Origin: Candidatus Mcinerneyibacterium aminivorans
GTDB taxonomy: Bacteria > Macinerneyibacteriota > Macinerneyibacteria > Macinerneyibacteriales > Macinerneyibacteriaceae
NCBI GenBank assembly: GCA_008086245.1
Contig: VSIX01000032.1
Location: 25,742-89,741 of the forward strand
Direction: 5' to 3'
DNA length: 64,000 nt
Shown here: piece by piece, positions 5,759-23,470 of the stretch
Layout of the letters: the number at the start of each line of letters is the position of its first letter
How positions within the stretch are numbered: the first letter of the stretch is position 1
Program-made: the position numbers and the translations under genes
Notes under the pieces: generated by a model
Seen by the model: only the letters and a program-made list of their open reading frames with translations
What the model was told of the DNA's origin: nothing
Database searches by the model: none

Positions 5759-7188
5759 AATTAAAATCTGATCCAATTGAAATTCCTAAACTTGAGGATA
5801 TTGAAAATGAAGATCAAATTTTTAAAAATGATAAATTAAAAAGGAAAGAAGAAATTGAAATATTAACTAATTTTGTTCAGAATGTTGAAACACCCTTTGT
5901 TATAACAGTAAATTCACAATGGGGGAATGGAAAAACTACTTTTATTAGATTATGGAGAAGATATTTAGAGTTCAAGAATATTCCTACTATCCTATTCAAT
6001 GCATGGGAAACTGAATTTTTAGATATGCCCTTATTTTCTTTAATTGGTGAATTAGATGAACATATTACAGAGAATAAAAATATAAGACAGCAGGAAAAGG
6101 AAAAACTAAAAAATGCAGCTAAAGGAATATATGATAATAAATTAAATATTTTGATTAAACTACTTTCTAGAGGAACCTTAGCAGCAGAGGAGTTTAAAAA
6201 TAATTATGATTTCAGTATAGAAAAATATAAGGAACTTAAAAAGGGTATAAATGATTTAAAAGATAATGTAAATGATACAATAAAAGATATTTTAAAAAAA
6301 TATAACAAAAATTATAAAAATAAAGAGAAGAATAAAGAAATTACAGGGGATATTAATATTTTTAATCCAAATAATTTAATATTTTTCATAGATGAGTTGG
6401 ATAGATGTAAACCTTTCTATGTTATAAATATGCTGGAAAAAATCAAACATTTTTTTAATATTAAAAATGTAGTATTTGTTCTTTCAATAGACAAAAACCA
6501 AATTCAAAATGCATTAAAATCAGTTTATAGTAATGAAATTGAAGCAAAGCAATTTCTAAATAAAATTATTGATTTGAATTATGATTTAAAATCTATTAGT
6601 AGTGAAAAGTATTTACAATCTTTAATAACAAAATTTGGAATTGAAATATTAAATGAAGAAAAAAATATTTATGGTGAAAAAATTAATATTATAAAAATTA
6701 TTCGATACTTTTGTAATAAAAAAGGTTACAGTTATAGACAAAAGGAATTTTTTATAAGATACATAGTTCTTGTATCTAAAGTTATACAAGAATTAGATGA
6801 GATAACTTTTGTTTTTACACCCTTTATAATTTTTATAATGTTGGAAGATAAAAATAGCTATAAAAAAATATTAAACAATAATTATAATCCCCAAAAATTA
6901 ATTAATAATATAATTAAAAATCATAATATAAATGATAATTCTTTCAATAAAAAATATCTTGGAATAGTAGAAGCTTTATTAAGATACAAAAAAAATGATC
7001 CTGAAATGCTTGAAAGTTATCGTAATAACTATACAAGAAATGAAGATGGTTCTAAAAGTAGAGCATATTATGTTGTATCAACAATTACTTCCTTAGGTAA
7101 AAATATAAAAGAGATAAAAGAAAAAATGGAAAAAATAATAAGAAGCATAAATTTATTAGAGGGTATTTTTTTTAGTAGTGAAAAATAA
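5755..7188 (+). CDS. KAP family P-loop NTPase
   Basis: Walker A 'NSQWGNGKTT', 'FNAWE', Walker B 'FFIDELDRC', 'LEKIKHFF', 'FLNKIID'. Confidence 0.9.
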   Translation: MKLKSDPIEIPKLEDIENEDQIFKNDKLKRKEEIEILTNFVQNVETPFVITVNSQWGNGKTTFIRLWRRYLEFKNIPTILFNAWETEFLDMPLFSLIGELDEHITENKNIRQQEKEKLKNAAKGIYDNKLNILIKLLSRGTLAAEEFKNNYDFSIEKYKELKKGINDLKDNVNDTIKDILKKYNKNYKNKEKNKEITGDINIFNPNNLIFFIDELDRCKPFYVINMLEKIKHFFNIKNVVFVLSIDKNQIQNALKSVYSNEIEAKQFLNKIIDLNYDLKSISSEKYLQSLITKFGIEILNEEKNIYGEKINIIKIIRYFCNKKGYSYRQKEFFIRYIVLVSKVIQELDEITFVFTPFIIFIMLEDKNSYKKILNNNYNPQKLINNIIKNHNINDNSFNKKYLGIVEALLRYKKNDPEMLESYRNNYTRNEDGSKSRAYYVVSTITSLGKNIKEIKEKMEKIIRSINLLEGIFFSSEK

Positions 7189-14066: not shown

Positions 14067-14552
14067 ATGAAATATAGAAAACCGGAAAAGTCCGATATAG
14101 CAGGGTTGATAAGATTATCCAAAGAATTTTCGATTGAATCCAGGTGGGGACATCTTATTCCCGTGGGACAGATTTATAATATTGAAGAGGCAAGAGAAAA
14201 CCTTTTTGGCAGTAATATTTATGAATGCCGGGTGGCAAAGAAAAAAGATAAACTCATTGGTTATATTGCTGTGAAAGAACATGAAAAAATCTATGAAGCT
14301 TCTATACTTGTTGACTCTGATTACAGAAAACAGGGTGTCGGGAAAAATCTAACGGATAATATATTTAAAAGCATACCCCGGGATATAGAAGTAGAAGCAT
14401 GGGTGGCAGATTTTAATGAAGCATCGATTAAAGCAACCCCCCAAATGGGATTTGAATTTAAAAAAAAGATATATGAAACTGAATACATCCCGGATAAGGA
14501 GTTTTATGTATACATTTATTCAAGATATGGCGATTACAAAAATCAGCTTTAA
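14067..14552 (+). CDS. GNAT family N-acetyltransferase
   Basis: YRKQGVGK, NEASIK...MGF. Confidence 0.8.
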   Translation: MKYRKPEKSDIAGLIRLSKEFSIESRWGHLIPVGQIYNIEEARENLFGSNIYECRVAKKKDKLIGYIAVKEHEKIYEASILVDSDYRKQGVGKNLTDNIFKSIPRDIEVEAWVADFNEASIKATPQMGFEFKKKIYETEYIPDKEFYVYIYSRYGDYKNQL

Positions 14553-14593
14553 TGGTTTATATAAGTAGATAAAAAGGAATAACTACCAAAGCA

Positions 14594-14930
14594 GTCATCC
14601 TGAATTTAATTTCAGGATTACATTTTGTATGAGAAAATATTGGGAAGATGCTGAAACAAGTTCAGCATGACAGTAATAAGGATAGTCATCCTGAATTTAT
14701 TTCAGGATCTCATTTTGTATGAGAAAATATTAAGAAGATGCTGAAACGAGTTCAGCATGACAGTAAAAGGAAGTCATTCTGAGCTTGTCTCAGAATCTCC
14801 TATAGGAATAAAGAGAAATATTGTAGGAGATTCTGAAACAAGTATGTTTGAGAATATAATATTGGGAAGATGCTGAAACAAGTTCAGCATGACATTATCA
14901 GGTAGTCGTTCTGAATTTATTTCAGGATCT
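14594..14930. repeat. Upstream array of 26-nt palindromic REP-like repeats (GTC-ATnnyGAr-YTYRT-yTCrnnAT-CT)
   Basis: Copies: +14594-14620, -14646-14671, +14685-14710, -14736-14761, +14773-14798, -14828-14843 (truncated), -14868-14893, +14905-14930. Confidence 0.95.
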
Positions 14931-14964
14931 ACTGTGAATTATAACAAATGGAAAGGAATTTATT

Positions 14965-15255
14965 ATGAATAAAAAGGGCTTTGTATATTTTCTTACCAAT
15001 AGAAATAATAAAGTTTTATATATCGGAGTTACCAGCAATTTGAAAAAAAGAATCTATGAACATAAGAATAAATTAATTGAAGGATTTACAAACAAATATA
15101 ACTGTGAGAAACTGGTGTATTATGAAAAATATAATGATATAAATGAAGCAATTGAAAGAGAGAAGCAACTTAAAAATTGGCATAGAGATTGGAAGAATAA
15201 TTTAGTTGAAAAAGAAAACAGTGAATGGAAAGATTTAAGTGAAGAGTTTTTGTAG
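14965..15255 (+). CDS. Stand-alone GIY-YIG nuclease (96 aa)
   Basis: GFVYFL...LYIGVT, conserved R (KKRIYEH), GFT.KY, LVYYE, catalytic E in AIEREKQLK, W.R.WK..L...N.EW.DL. Confidence 0.93.
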   Translation: MNKKGFVYFLTNRNNKVLYIGVTSNLKKRIYEHKNKLIEGFTNKYNCEKLVYYEKYNDINEAIEREKQLKNWHRDWKNNLVEKENSEWKDLSEEFL

Positions 15256-15259
15256 ATAA

Positions 15260-15727
15260 TGAATCCTGAGATAAATCAGTGTCATAGTATGAAGTCATTT
15301 CGAACTTGTTTCGGAATCTCCTTATGTAAACAGCTTTGTATTAGGTAGATGTTGAAACAAGGTTTTAAAAGATATATTGTAAGAAGATATTGAAACAAGT
15401 TCAATATGACATGAGGTCAAAGTCATTCCGAATTTATTTCGGAATCTTATTTTGTATGAGAAAATATTAAGAAGATGCTGAAACGAGTTCAGCATGACAG
15501 TAAAAGGAAGTCATTCTGAGCTTGTCTCAGAATCTCCTGTAGAAATAAAGAGAAATATTGTAGAAGATGCTGAAACAAGTATGTTTGAGAATATAATATT
15601 GGGAAGATGCTGAAACAAGTTCAGCATGACAGTAATAAGGATAATCATCCTGAATTTATTTCAGGGTCTATCTCACAATCTCCTCTTAAATAAAGAAAAA
15701 TTTTGAAATAGATGCTTAAATGAACTG
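15260..15727. repeat. Downstream array of the same 26-nt palindromic repeats
   Basis: Copies: -~15260-15279 (degenerate), +15294-15319, -15347-15361 (truncated), -15385-15410, +15422-15447, -15473-15498, +15510-15535, -15565-15580 (truncated), -15605-15630, +15644-15669, possible relic -15710-15727. Confidence 0.93.
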
Positions 15728-15891
15728 TAATATTTTCATATTTCAAAAAAATGAATAATAAAAACGCCCGTAGGAATTTTTAATATACACAAACATCAAT
15801 ATCGAAAGTATAAATAAAAGCTTGCAAATACCGTTGCAATTATATAAAATAAAATATGATTTAAATGAAACTAAAATAAAAATGGGGGAAA

Positions 15892-16575
15892 ATGTTTTAT
15901 TTTTTTCTGGCAATACTGCCCGGGATTTTAATAATTGTATATTTTTATAAAAGAGATAGGCTTGAACCCGAGCCTAAATGGATGATTGTAAAAACCTTTT
16001 TCCTGGGAATTCTTGCTTCTTCAGCTGCTTTGTTTTTTAATAGTTTGTTTGGAGGGATATTTCAAAATAATTTGTTGATTGGCGCAGTATTAATTGCTCC
16101 TATTGTCGAAGAATCGTGCAAATTTTATTCGGTTAAATATTTTAGATTTAAAGATAAACATTTTACCGAACCAATGGATGGAATAGTATATGGAGTGACT
16201 GTAGCTGTTGGTTTTGCTGTAATGGAAAATCTCAATTATGTGTACAGAGCCCTACAGGAAGGACATGTTTATTATACACTTATAATAAGAGGTTTTCTAT
16301 CGGTACCGGCCCATGCGTTATTTGCAGTAATCTGGGGTTATGCACTGGGAATGTATAAATTTGGGAAGAAAGATGAAAATTTTGTTAAAAATTCTCTTAT
16401 TCAGGCAATGATATTCCACTCTGCTTTTAATGCAATTGCAGTTTTGGTAAATCCAATTTGGGATATTTTCTATCTTGCTCTTCTTTCAGTATACCTATGG
16501 TACATAGCGGATAAAGATATAAGAAGTGCAATAAAAAATTCTCCCTATCAAAATGATTTTGATGAAGAAAAGTAA
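15892..16575 (+). CDS. prsW: PrsW family intramembrane metalloprotease
   Basis: DRLEPEP, APIVEESCK, DGIVYG..VAVGFA..EN, HA..A, H..FN. Confidence 0.9.
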   Translation: MFYFFLAILPGILIIVYFYKRDRLEPEPKWMIVKTFFLGILASSAALFFNSLFGGIFQNNLLIGAVLIAPIVEESCKFYSVKYFRFKDKHFTEPMDGIVYGVTVAVGFAVMENLNYVYRALQEGHVYYTLIIRGFLSVPAHALFAVIWGYALGMYKFGKKDENFVKNSLIQAMIFHSAFNAIAVLVNPIWDIFYLALLSVYLWYIADKDIRSAIKNSPYQNDFDEEK

Positions 16576-22037: not shown

Positions 22038-23470
22038 ATGAAAAAATTATCAGTTATTATTTTTTTTGTGTTAATTTTGACGGTTAGTTTGGCTGCAGCT
22101 GATAAAAGTATCTCTAAAGAGATGCTTGAAGATATTACGAAGTATAAAGCTACAGGAAAGGACAAACTGATTCAGGATACTTTTTTTGAAAATTCAGTTT
22201 GGACCATGGCAATCAATCCTGATATTTTTAGAAAGCACAATGATAGGTTCTCCCATGAGATAAAATCCGGAAATATAACAAATCAGGAATATACCGGTAG
22301 ATGCTGGATATTTGGTGCTTTAAATTCTATTAGACCTTTTGTTATTGAGAAAACCGGGAAGAAAGATTTTGAGTTTTCTCAAAATATATCTATTTTTACA
22401 GCAAACTGGAAAAGGCAAATTATTTTTTTGAAAAGGTAATAGATTTTATAGACTATGGAATAAGGAGCTATCAGTTTCAGGAACTGATTGATGAACCAAT
22501 TGAAGATGGGGGATACTACAGCTGGGTTAGGGGTATAATTAAAAAATATGGAATTGTTCCGGACAGCCAGATGATTGATACAAAGAGTACCGAAAATTCC
22601 CGTGGGATGAATAAAATATTAAACAGATATGTTTTAATTTCTGCATCTAAAATGATCGATAAATATGAAGAAACAAAAGATAAGGAAGATATGAGAGAGA
22701 TGAAAACGGAGTTTTTAAAAGGAGTTTATAAAATTCTTGTCCTTCATCTTGGAACTCCACCTGAGGAGTTTACTTTTGCATATAAGGAAAAAGATAAATC
22801 CAAAAAGAAAGATGAAGGCAGCAAAAATAAGGATTCTGAGGGTAATAAGGATAAAACTGAATGGGTTGAAGAAAAGCATACCCCTTATTCCTTTGCAGAA
22901 AAATATGTTTATGAGGACCTGGATAAAATTGTCACCGTAACATATATTCCTTCGAGAAAAATGAACCAGCCGTACAAATTAGTGGGAACAGATCTTGTAA
23001 AAGACGAGATGGGAAATATTATTAGATATAATATGAATTTGAATGAAATAAAAAAGATGATGAAAAAATCAATTAAGGATGATCTACCCGTAGCTTTTGC
23101 TGCAAATGCTAATTTTGATATGCATAATGATACTGGAGTAATGCATCCTGAAGTTTACAATTATGAAAAAATATATGATTTGGACCTTAAGAGAAGTAAA
23201 ACAGCAGAAGGATTGATGGGTCTTATCTTTTCGAATCACCTAATGACTGTACTGGGGTTGGATGAGAAAAATGAAGAAGTTATAAAATGGAAAGTTGAAA
23301 ACTCCTGGGGAGAGGATGCAGGAGATAACGGTATTTATTATATGTATGATGGCTGGATAGATAAATATGTTGAAGAAGTATATATACATAGAAAATATCT
23401 ATCCAAAAAACATTTAAAAAATTTAAAGAAAACACCAATTGAAGTTGATTATTACGAAACTCCTTATTAA
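22038..23470 (+). pseudogene. pepC: Secreted C1B cysteine aminopeptidase (PepC/bleomycin hydrolase family), split by a 1-nt frameshift at ~22385
   Basis: Signal peptide; NQEYTGRCWIF (catalytic Q/C); FEFSQN then YFYSKLEKANYFF in the other frame; EDGGY; NHLM (His); ENSWG (Asn). Confidence 0.85.

What the first reader, a model, noticed from the sequence alone, without database searches (positions are those of the whole stretch)
14594..15727. Stand-alone GIY-YIG nuclease embedded in a bilateral array of GTC-tagged hairpin repeats: a RAYT/REPIN-like system with a different enzyme
Seen: a 96-aa GIY-YIG gene is flanked by 8 upstream and about 10 downstream copies of a 26-nt unit, GTC + 8-bp arm + 5-nt loop + 8-bp arm + CT (e.g. 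GTCATCCTGAATTTATTTCAGGATCT, GTCATGCTGAACTTGTTTCAGCATCT). Copies mostly alternate orientation. The GAC..GTC gaps are 11-13 nt and the CT..AG gaps are 25-29 nt. I saw no copies elsewhere in the window, and no transposase, integrase or cas gene nearby. Established: REP doublets (REPINs/BIMEs) with a short 5' tag cluster around the HUH RAYT transposase that processes them, and (C)GTC-tagged palindromes form a separate REP class. Inference: the GIY-YIG protein is the cognate enzyme that recognises or nicks these hairpins and maintains or spreads them, forming a minimal nuclease-repeat element. Alternatives are that the array is a titration site or the source of structured RNAs for the nuclease.
Basis: partly seen in the sequence, partly recalled or inferred. 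Interest (0 to 1): 0.92.

Follow-up and report, generated by a model that had tools for sequence, protein, structure and literature searches.

The report
Ssn hairpin nuclease with its repeats
A tiny GIY-YIG nuclease gene sits between arrays of tagged DNA hairpins; this nuclease-plus-repeat pairing was described in 2025 as the Ssn family, so it is a real but already known kind of system, here with a hairpin variant that the published search string misses.

Summary
A 96-aa single-domain GIY-YIG gene (14965-15255, +) lies between two arrays of 26-nt hairpins, GTC + 8-bp stem + 5-nt loop + stem + CT. There are 13 units within 3 mismatches against 0 in shuffles, plus about 6 decayed ones.

The kind is already published: Chenal et al. 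2025 (PMC11893778) describe the Ssn family. These are about 94-aa GIY-YIG nucleases that bind a GTC-tagged hairpin (NTS/SRM) in single-stranded DNA only and cut just upstream. Their genes are typically flanked by those hairpins, and the authors themselves draw the RAYT/REP analogy.

Evidence for membership:
- Catalytic residues are conserved.
- 75 of 80 named homologue loci carry GTC...C hairpins within 400 nt, 64 of 80 on both sides.
- Some homologues are flanked by the exact published NTS core.

What this work adds:
- The published SRM search string finds 0 hits in this genome.
- The same CYGAR hairpin class accompanies close homologues in 14 named phyla.
- Hairpins face outward around the gene.
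- A near-identical strain lacks the whole 1049-bp module.

Verdict: new member of a known kind. Mobility remains unproven.

The parts
14594..14620 (+). F1, decayed hairpin unit (6-nt loop; 3' tag TTA instead of TCT); left breakpoint of the 1049-bp indel lies at 14617/14618
   Evidence: (family D7)
14646..14671 (-). R1 hairpin unit, 0 mismatches
   Evidence: ssDNA fold -6.7 kcal/mol, z -5.0
14685..14710 (+). F2 hairpin unit, 0 mismatches
   Evidence: ssDNA fold -6.2 kcal/mol, z -3.8
14736..14761 (-). R2 hairpin unit
14773..14798 (+). F3 hairpin unit (stem ATTCTGAG)
14828..14855 (-). decayed inverted unit without the GAC tag
   Evidence: inverted pair I6
14868..14893 (-). R4 hairpin unit
14905..14930 (+). 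F4 hairpin unit; ends 34 nt before the ATG, in the orientation usual for the nearest upstream hairpin in homologue loci
14965..15255 (+). ssn-like gene: 96-aa single-domain GIY-YIG nuclease
15294..15319 (+). F5 hairpin unit (stem ATTTCGAA/TTCGGAAT, 7 of 8 pairs)
15347..15361 (-). half unit (AGAT + one arm only)
15385..15410 (-). R6 hairpin unit (stem ATATTGAA)
15422..15447 (+). F6 hairpin unit (stem ATTCCGAA)
15473..15498 (-). R7 hairpin unit
15510..15535 (+). F7 hairpin unit
15565..15592 (-). decayed inverted unit without the GAC tag
15605..15630 (-). R9 hairpin unit
15644..15669 (+). F8 hairpin unit (ATC instead of GTC); right breakpoint of the 1049-bp indel lies at 15666/15667
15710..15725 (-). 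partial last unit
14684..14897 (+). left copy of the 214-nt direct repeat (95% identical to 15421-15634)
   Evidence: family D2
15421..15634 (+). right copy of the 214-nt direct repeat
   Evidence: family D2
14618..15666 (.). 1049-bp segment (both arrays plus the gene) that is absent from one contig of a near-identical strain in run X2
   Evidence: tables 5 and 8

Best explanation
This is a member of the Ssn family: a single-domain GIY-YIG endonuclease together with its cognate Ssn-related hairpin motifs.

By analogy with four purified homologues, the protein most likely works as follows.
- It recognises the hairpin only when the DNA is single-stranded, for example at replication forks or in incoming transforming or conjugating strands.
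- It needs the C just 3' of the stem for binding and the GTC just 5' of the stem for cleavage.
- It cuts hydrolytically a few nucleotides upstream of GTC.

Because units alternate in orientation here, both strands carry sites.

What is shown here: the anatomy, conservation of the catalytic residues, the gene-hairpin association across homologues, and gain or loss of the whole module between strains.

What is inferred from the literature: the biochemistry, and any role such as restricting or modulating recombination of hairpin-bearing single-stranded DNA.
For: Protein:
- 96 aa with PF01541 at 69.9 bits and no other domain.
- Y8, Y19, G21, R29, H33, E66, K67, K70, R74, K77 and N85 are invariant in 28 family members. 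The paper's inactivating mutants in the 94-aa N. meningitidis SsnA are Y6A, Y17A and E64A.
- The family is very large: 4749 clusters at 50% identity with E <= 1e-10.

Hairpins:
- The GTC and AT...ATCT tags are kept while stem pairs covary. Pair 3 occurs as G-C, C-G, T-A and A-T.
- They fold as single-stranded DNA at -6.2 and -6.7 kcal/mol, z -3.8 and -5.0.

Association in relatives:
- 10 of the 12 homologue places in relatives' genomes have tagged hairpins beside the gene.
- These include the exact published NTS core GTCATTCCCGCGAAAGCGGGAATCC next to a 54%-identical homologue (L012).

Association in 80 named loci:
- 75 of 80 have at least one hairpin within 400 nt, and 64 of 80 have them on both sides. 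Density is 4.28 per kb near the gene against 0.43 per kb further away.
- Controls gave 24 of 80 (any) and 6 of 80 (both sides) for reversed sequence, 15 of 80 and 1 of 80 for shuffled sequence, and 18 of 53 for stretches 1.9-2.3 kb away.
- Hairpin class clusters on the protein tree: 17 changes against 24.5 +/- 2.0 in shuffles, with 0 of 1000 shuffles reaching the observed value.

Within this genome, arrays of four or more units occur only at the two ssn genes.

Literature: PMC11893778 reports binding and cutting of single-stranded DNA only, the roles of GTC and of the 3' C, and flanking hairpins in 71% of homologues and on both sides in 42%.
Against: - The published degenerate SRM search string matches none of the units and has 0 hits in the whole 2.15-Mb assembly. 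It hits 9 of 80 homologue loci.
- I could not test assignment to CDD cd10448 or direct similarity to N. meningitidis SsnA, because neither was on hand.
- The paper reports that changing the palindrome sequence while keeping the hairpin abolished N. meningitidis SsnA activity. Activity on these AT-rich stems therefore requires a co-evolved specificity, which is not shown for this protein.
- The same-genus genome G001 (88% complete) has at least 3 such hairpins but no detectable ssn.
- No biochemistry exists for this protein.
Confidence: 0.85

Rival explanations
1. The gene plus an outward-tagged hairpin pair is an IS-like mobile unit. The gene-less F-R doublets, both in the arrays and in the dispersed MITE-like elements, are its non-autonomous copies, with Ssn supplying the strand cuts. 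This would be a GIY-YIG analogue of RAYT/REPIN. It is compatible with the best explanation at the level of biochemistry and differs only in biological role.
For: - The nearest upstream hairpin is in + orientation in 57 of 72 loci and the nearest downstream hairpin is in - orientation in 56 of 69. The GTC tags therefore face outward like terminal inverted repeats (binomial p about 1e-7).
- Gene-less F-(25-33 nt)-R doublets occur in this genome inside roughly 15-18 palindromic elements of 180-270 bp. They also occur in other genomes that carry the same hairpin class.
- Distribution is patchy: 10 of 41 relatives have a homologue.
- The same hairpin class accompanies the protein in 14 named phyla, at locus GC of 0.29-0.58.
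- One Atrimonadaceae chromosome has two copies 17 kb apart, 90% identical over about 690 nt.
- The 1049-bp module is absent from a near-identical strain.
Against: - The indel junction lies at the 3' end of a hairpin (GGA|TCT), not a few nucleotides 5' of GTC where the homologues cut. Recombination or slippage between the direct copies F1 and F8 explains it equally well.
- Two Kordia species keep the gene at the same locus at about 90% DNA identity.
- No searched genome had more than 2 gene copies.
- GIY-YIG enzymes hydrolyse DNA and have no known strand-transfer step (established knowledge).
- I found no target-site duplication.
- Copy boundaries in the Atrimonadaceae pair are not sharp.
Confidence: 0.22
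2. The co-location is passive. The hairpins are ordinary intergenic palindromes or terminators that accumulate where they do no harm, and an unrelated selfish GIY-YIG gene happens to sit among them.
For: - Eight terminator-like hits in the region against 0.4 expected.
- Hairpins also occur away from any ssn gene.
- G001 has hairpins without a detectable ssn.
Against: - 75 of 80 independent homologue loci across many phyla carry tagged hairpins, against 15-24 of 80 in controls.
- Orientation around the gene is strongly biased.
- Hairpin class follows the protein tree.
- Homologues bind their own hairpins at nanomolar affinity.
Confidence: 0.04
3. The array acts at the RNA level, as structured RNAs, guides or regulators of ssn expression.
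For: The stems covary, which fits RNA as well as DNA hairpins. The last upstream unit lies in the likely 5' leader, 34 nt before the ATG.
Against: - N. meningitidis SsnA neither bound nor cut RNA of the same sequence.
- No Rfam family reached its threshold; the best hit scored 23 bits against a gathering score of 65 or more.
- Units lie on both strands in equal numbers.
- No RNA run holding the stretch was on record.
Confidence: 0.04

Closest known systems
Ssn family / NTS-SRM hairpins (SsnA of Neisseria meningitidis; Chenal et al. 2025, Nat Commun 16:2388, PMC11893778)
   Same: - A single-domain GIY-YIG protein of about 94-96 aa with the same catalytic Tyr, Tyr and Glu.
- The gene is flanked on both sides by hairpins with GTC 5' and C 3' of an AT...AT palindrome.
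- The repeats also occur elsewhere in the genome.
- Homologues of the window's protein are flanked by the exact NTS core.
   Different: - The stem interior is AT-rich (NCTGAA / TTCAGN with a 5-nt loop) and escapes the published SRM search string, which gives 0 hits in the genome.
- Copy number is low, about 25-35 in this genome against hundreds in pathogenic Neisseria.
- Units form regular alternating arrays and F-R doublets.
- The host is an unnamed 30%-GC assembly from a sparsely sampled lineage.
- No biochemistry exists for this member.
RAYT (TnpA-REP) with REP / REPIN / BIME repeats
   Same: A single gene is flanked by its own tagged palindromes, the repeats are dispersed as inverted doublets, and recognition is of single-stranded hairpins.
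   Different: The enzyme there is an HUH/Y1 tyrosine transposase (PF01797) that forms a covalent intermediate. Here it is a hydrolytic GIY-YIG nuclease. The one Y1_Tnp match in this genome (contig C148) has no such hairpins on its contig.
IS200/IS605 insertion sequences
   Same: Subterminal hairpins are recognised on one strand, and the architecture is hairpin-gene-hairpin.
   Different: The enzyme class differs, and no transposition has been shown for Ssn elements.
GIY-YIG homing endonucleases (for example the I-TevI type)
   Same: The GIY-YIG catalytic fold, and selfish-gene-like patchy distribution.
   Different: Homing enzymes carry an added DNA-binding domain and cut double-stranded DNA. 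The TIGR01453 score here is 23.6 bits against a cut-off of 56.05, and the protein consists of the catalytic domain alone.

Membership tests
Ssn (GIY-YIG_unchar_3, cd10448) | Single-domain GIY-YIG protein of about 94 aa | tested here: met
   96 aa; PF01541 covers residues 4-78 at 69.9 bits; there is no room for another domain.
Ssn (GIY-YIG_unchar_3, cd10448) | Catalytic Tyr, Tyr and Glu, whose mutation abolished cleavage in N. meningitidis SsnA (Y6A, Y17A, E64A) | tested here: met
   Y8, Y19 and E66, plus R29, H33 and N85, are invariant in 28 aligned members. The mutants come from the paper. The residue correspondence rests on position and motif only; I made no alignment with the Neisseria protein.
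Ssn (GIY-YIG_unchar_3, cd10448) | Best CDD assignment cd10448, or membership of the shaded Ssn clade in the superfamily tree | not testable with these tools
   No CDD library and no sequence of the characterised enzymes was on hand. NCBIfam has no model above its cut-off and the PDB has no hit.
Ssn (GIY-YIG_unchar_3, cd10448) | Gene flanked by hairpin repeats on both sides (NTS-ssnA-NTS architecture) | tested here: met
   8 units upstream and 10 downstream.
Ssn (GIY-YIG_unchar_3, cd10448) | Motif signature: oriented hairpin with conserved GTC just 5' of the palindrome and C just 3' of it | tested here: met
   12 of the 13 strict units in the window start with GTC and all 13 end with ATCT or GTCT. 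The tags are kept while the stems covary.
Ssn (GIY-YIG_unchar_3, cd10448) | Match to the published degenerate SRM search string. This is an operational detector built by hand from 29 genomes, not a definition; 29% of homologues in the paper lack a match. | tested here: not met
   0 of 5 tested units and 0 hits in the 2.15-Mb genome. 9 of 80 homologue loci match.
Ssn (GIY-YIG_unchar_3, cd10448) | Homologues are flanked by canonical NTS-type hairpins | tested here: met
   L002, L006, L012 and L013 carry GTCATTCCC...GGGAATCC hairpins within 100 nt of genes that are 51-57% identical to the window's protein.
Ssn (GIY-YIG_unchar_3, cd10448) | Binds and cuts its hairpin as single-stranded DNA only, a few nucleotides upstream | not testable with these tools
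   This needs purified protein.
RAYT / REPIN | HUH/Y1 transposase (PF01797) as the associated enzyme | tested here: not met
   The flanked protein is GIY-YIG. The only Y1_Tnp match is on contig C148, a contig with no hairpin hit.
GIY-YIG homing endonuclease | Catalytic domain joined to a DNA-binding domain; the TIGR01453 model | tested here: not met
   TIGR01453 scores 23.6 bits against a cut-off of 56.05, matching residues 4-47 only. The protein is 96 aa in total.

The most novel reading that the evidence does not exclude
The Ssn gene with its outward-facing hairpin pair is a self-mobilising, IS-like unit. The gene-less F-R doublets are its non-autonomous progeny, that is, REPIN-like elements driven by a hydrolytic GIY-YIG nuclease. 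These doublets include the tandem ones spaced 11-13 nt apart around the gene and those inside about 15-18 dispersed palindromic elements. On this reading the 1049-bp presence/absence difference between near-identical strains is a gain or loss of that unit.
Probability: 0.22. Interest if true: 0.75.

Novelty: new member of a known kind. Interest (0 to 1): 0.35.

Why it matters
The finding itself is a rediscovery: the Ssn nuclease-hairpin pairing was published in 2025, with biochemistry. Three things give this locus residual value.

- **A missed hairpin class.** A large, phylum-spanning hairpin class (NCYGAR stem, 5-nt loop) travels with close Ssn homologues but is invisible to the published search string. 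Published association figures therefore probably understate the link, and a new enzyme-site pair is available for single-stranded DNA tools.
- **Regular layout.** Outward-tagged hairpins, F-R doublets and fixed 11-13-nt gaps give concrete predictions for where the enzyme cuts.
- **A natural indel.** A near-identical strain lacking the whole module offers a natural test of what the module does. Its role outside Neisseria is still an open question.

Tried and rejected
**Searches that found nothing useful**
- Rfam scan of 14300-16000 at E <= 5: only chance-level miRNA and sRNA hits far below gathering scores. An RNA family is rejected.
- NCBIfam: nothing above its cut-off.
- PDB sequence search: no hit at E <= 0.01.

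**Empty-site test in the same-genus genome G001**
- The methyltransferase-prsW interval there holds two other genes of 537 and 419 aa, and neither GNAT nor ssn.
- At 68-76% DNA identity it gives no clean empty site, so I dropped it as a test.

**Boundary mapping of the two Atrimonadaceae copies**
- Similarity ends inside runs of half-hairpins, so the ends are not sharp.

**Possible decayed inverted hairpin just after the stop codon (15256-15292)**
- It folds at -1.7 kcal/mol, z -0.5, so it is not supported as a hairpin.

**Sequencing runs**
- Runs X1, X3 and X4 gave only short pieces, and no cover of the gene in X3. I draw nothing from uncovered parts.
- The 'goes back' joint in X2 (15669 to 14641 with 40 other letters between, depth 2.1) most likely comes from another repeat locus. 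I did not use it.
- Habitat labels of runs with small shares were not used.

**Link to N. meningitidis SsnA**
- A direct link was not made, because no tool gave me its sequence.

**Literature**
- Three full-text searches found only PMC11893778 on this system.
- Its supplementary data, which hold the lists of SRMs and homologues, were not opened because supplements are closed. They may already include CYGAR-type hairpins.
Full report
**1.

The ORF at 14965-15255 (+) encodes 96 aa. It matches PF01541 GIY-YIG at E 2.2e-19 over residues 4-78.

A degenerate 26-nt pattern, GTC + 8-nt arm + 5-nt loop + arm + CT, matches 13 times in the 64-kb window with up to 3 mismatches. All 13 lie between 14646 and 15669, and none of 100 shuffles gave a match.

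- Orientation alternates.
- GAC..GTC gaps are 11-13 nt.
- CT..AG gaps are 25-29 nt.

The units fold as single-stranded DNA at -6.2 and -6.7 kcal/mol, z -3.8 and -5.0. Across the 16 distinct units of the genome the tags GTC, AT...AT and CT are kept while stem pairs covary. Pair 3 is found as G-C, C-G, T-A and A-T.

The two arrays also share a 214-nt direct repeat at 95% identity.

**2. The kind is already in print**

A full-text search led to Chenal et al. 2025, Nat Commun 16:2388 (PMC11893778). I read Results parts 1-3, the Discussion and Methods section 17. Two further searches found no other paper on the system.

The paper defines the Ssn family (CDD cd10448) from the 94-aa SsnA of N. meningitidis and reports the following:
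- The enzyme binds a hairpin repeat, NTS (CGTCATTCCCGCGMAVGCGGGAATCYRG), only as single-stranded DNA, and cuts a few nucleotides upstream.
- The three nucleotides 5' of the palindrome matter most for cutting.
- The C just after the palindrome matters most for binding.
- RNA and duplex DNA are not touched.
- Y6A, Y17A and E64A abolish cutting.
- Loss of the gene raises transformation by NTS-bearing DNA about five-fold.
- 71% of homologues have such motifs nearby, and 42% have them on both sides.

The authors themselves compare NTS-ssnA-NTS with insertion sequences and RAYT/REP.

**3. Membership**

The window's protein is single-domain and of the right size. In an alignment of 28 family members, Y8, Y19, G21, R29, H33, E66, K67, K70, R74, K77 and N85 are invariant. 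The family is very large: 12927 clusters at 50% identity at E <= 0.001 and 4749 at E <= 1e-10. The best 120 hits in the other collection are 64-81% identical.

Among 41 genomes (the window's own plus 40 relatives), 10 have a homologue at E <= 1e-10, at 14 places. Of the 12 places outside this genome:
- Six have perfect-stem GTC...C hairpins within 100 nt of the gene.
- Four more show 5-bp-stem or long-loop forms right beside the gene when the flanks are read.
- The two without hairpins are the weakest matches, at E about 5e-11 to 7e-11.

Some of these hairpins are the exact published NTS core, for example GTCATTCCCGCGAAAGCGGGAATCC next to a 54%-identical gene in L012.

I could not test the CDD assignment or similarity to the Neisseria protein itself.

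**4. Wider association**

A scan of named genomes returned 80 loci, drawn from many phyla. With a relaxed definition (GTC, 5-bp perfect stem, loop of 3-45 nt, then C):
- 75 of 80 loci have at least one hairpin within 400 nt of the gene.
- 64 of 80 have them on both sides.
- Density is 4.28 per kb near the gene against 0.43 per kb further out.

Controls:

| Control | Any hairpin | Both sides |
|---|---|---|
| Reversed sequence | 24 of 80 | 6 of 80 |
| Shuffled sequence | 15 of 80 | 1 of 80 |
| Two 400-nt stretches 1.9-2.3 kb away | 18 of 53 | not counted |

By contrast, the published degenerate SRM string hits 9 of 80 loci on either side and 0 of 80 on both sides. It finds nothing at all in the window's 2.15-Mb genome. 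I treat that string as a detector rather than a definition. Even so, a formally tested feature was not met, and I record it as such.

**5. The hairpin class travels with the protein**

I labelled 89 loci by the commonest hairpin near the gene. These were the 80 named loci plus 9 from the genome search. L009, L010, L012, L013 and L014 were left out.

31 of the 89 carry the window's class: an NCYGAR stem, short loop, total length up to 28 nt. These come from 14 named phyla, with locus GC from 0.29 to 0.58, so the AT-rich stem is not just a reflection of host composition.

On a quick maximum-likelihood tree of 87 proteins (L050 and L089 left out for length; 80 rows labelled):
- The class changes 17 times against 24.5 +/- 2.0 in 1000 shuffles, and none of the shuffles reached 17.
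- With four classes the figures are 27 against 42.1 +/- 2.2, again 0 of 1000.

The tree of a 96-aa protein is weak and the labels are crude. I read this as moderate evidence that enzyme and site are inherited or transferred together.

**6. Architecture**

Across 87 homologue loci:
- The nearest upstream hairpin is on the gene's strand in 57 of 72 loci, ending a median 35.5 nt before the match.
- The nearest downstream hairpin is inverted in 56 of 69 loci, starting a median 19 nt after the match (binomial p about 1e-7).

The GTC tags therefore face outward, like terminal inverted repeats.

In the window the upstream rule holds: F4 is on the + strand, 34 nt before the ATG. The first intact downstream unit, F5, is on the + strand and so belongs to the minority. 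A possible decayed inverted copy just after the stop does not fold convincingly.

The arrays themselves read as gene-less F-(25-29 nt)-R doublets set 11-13 nt apart.

**7. The rest of the genome**

- 25 units pass a stricter filter genome-wide, and 14 of them lie at this locus.
- The others sit mostly as F-R doublets inside palindromic elements of 180-270 bp with CAGRCTGTAAAGAAA ends. There are roughly 15-18 of these, and several are cut by contig ends.
- A second Ssn paralogue (contig C26, 60% identical, PF01541 E 5e-16) has its own flanking long-loop hairpins. These keep the 3' ...GGAATCT but lack the 5' GTC.
- A third GIY-YIG gene, of another subfamily on contig C7, has no repeats nearby.
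- The only Y1 transposase match is on contig C148, which carries no such hairpins.
- Arrays of four or more units occur only at the two ssn genes.

Other genomes with this hairpin class hold 9, 23 and 41 copies, with 0 for the backwards control pattern. Several of the listed copies lie in F-R pairs.

**8. Gain or loss of the module**

In run X2, which belongs to a different study from the best holder X1, one 559-nt contig of depth 4.1 matches 14132-14617 with 1 changed letter and 1 gap. It then runs straight on at 15667-15740 with 1 changed letter, skipping 1049 nt (tables 5 and 8).

The joined form carries one complete canonical hairpin...GTCATCCTGAATTTAATTTCAGGATCT.... The longest word shared around the two breakpoints is 14 nt, too short for a 31-mer assembly graph to join them falsely. 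A near-identical strain therefore lacks both arrays and the gene.

This is one low-depth contig in one run. The junction lies at the 3' end of a hairpin, not where Ssn enzymes cut. It fits recombination or slippage between the direct copies F1 and F8 at least as well as insertion or excision.

The same-genus genome G001 (88% complete) has no detectable ssn and only 3 strict hairpins. Its interval is rearranged, so it gives no clean empty site.

**9. Mechanism and rivals**

- **Most likely (0.85).** A site-specific single-stranded DNA endonuclease with co-evolved hairpin sites, working as in the published homologues. The biochemistry is inferred, not shown here.
- **Mobile-unit reading (0.22, compatible with the above).** The unit is mobile and the doublets are its non-autonomous copies. 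Support comes from orientation, doublets, patchy distribution and the indel. Against it stand the junction position, the syntenic Kordia pair, the low gene copy number, and the lack of a known strand-transfer chemistry for GIY-YIG enzymes.
- **Passive co-location and RNA-level function.** Each about 0.04.

**10. Verdict and limits**

The feature is real and the core reading is correct, but the kind is known: a new member of a known kind. What I add:
- a hairpin class missed by the published detector;
- the outward-tag rule;
- two enzyme-hairpin pairs in one genome;
- a natural presence/absence variant.

Interest is 0.35.

Noticed in passing
G000 contigs outside the window, e.g. C26:677-870, C26:5278-5553, C43:4957-5230, C101:2440-2718, C108:3245-3438, C17:13586-13834, C61:88534-88782: About 15-18 MITE-like palindromic elements of 180-270 bp with CAGRCTGTAAAGAAA inverted ends. 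Each carries one F-(about 33 nt)-R pair of the same GTC-tagged hairpins. Many sit at contig ends, so the true number is probably higher.
   Followed up: partly
G000 C26:5333-5390, C43:5014-5160, C101:2497-2660, C144:2207-2261, C153:75-140 and 6773-6830: A 28-nt module of two mini-hairpins (TCCC..GGGA and CAGAC..GTCTG) is nested inside hairpin units at the same point of the stem (CCT|GAA or TTC|AGG), in either arm. Whole hairpins are also nested in the loops of others. This looks like repeated insertion into hairpins.
   Followed up: no
G000 C26:4400-5230 (locus L011): A second Ssn paralogue (60% identical) is flanked by long-loop hairpins that keep ...GGAATCT at the 3' side but have CAT or AAA instead of GTC at the 5' side. 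By the published mutagenesis such sites would be bound but perhaps not cut, unless this paralogue has another 5' specificity.
   Followed up: partly
G000 C35: about 23164-23204 (2.5 kb before the window's start): A solitary hairpin of a third class (GTCATTGCGAGG...GAAGCAATCT) lies next to a CYGAR-type unit. This is the class that flanks the ssn gene of the same-family genome G002 (L003).
   Followed up: no
Homologue loci, e.g. L012:1900-1968, L030, L033, L040:2885-2926, L053, L086, L091, L106: A 5' half-site (GTCAT plus the left arm) recurs about 9-12 nt upstream of a complete hairpin, sometimes two or three times in tandem, in several phyla. Runs of 3' half-sites occur in the Atrimonadaceae loci. 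The origin is unexplained.
   Followed up: no
L085 versus L095 (Kordia periserrulae and Kordia sp.): The ssn gene sits at the same syntenic locus in both genomes at about 90% DNA identity, while the downstream hairpin array differs in length by about 70 bp (340 versus 270 bp between the syntenic blocks). The arrays evolve faster than the gene's position.
   Followed up: partly
window 14711-14735 and 15448-15472: The 25-nt spacer between F and R units contains its own small hairpin (CTCAT-TTTGT-ATGAG), predicted in the fold of 14685-14761.
   Followed up: no
G000 C7:30350-30556: A GIY-YIG gene of a different subfamily has no flanking hairpins. It serves as an internal negative control for the association.
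   Followed up: partly
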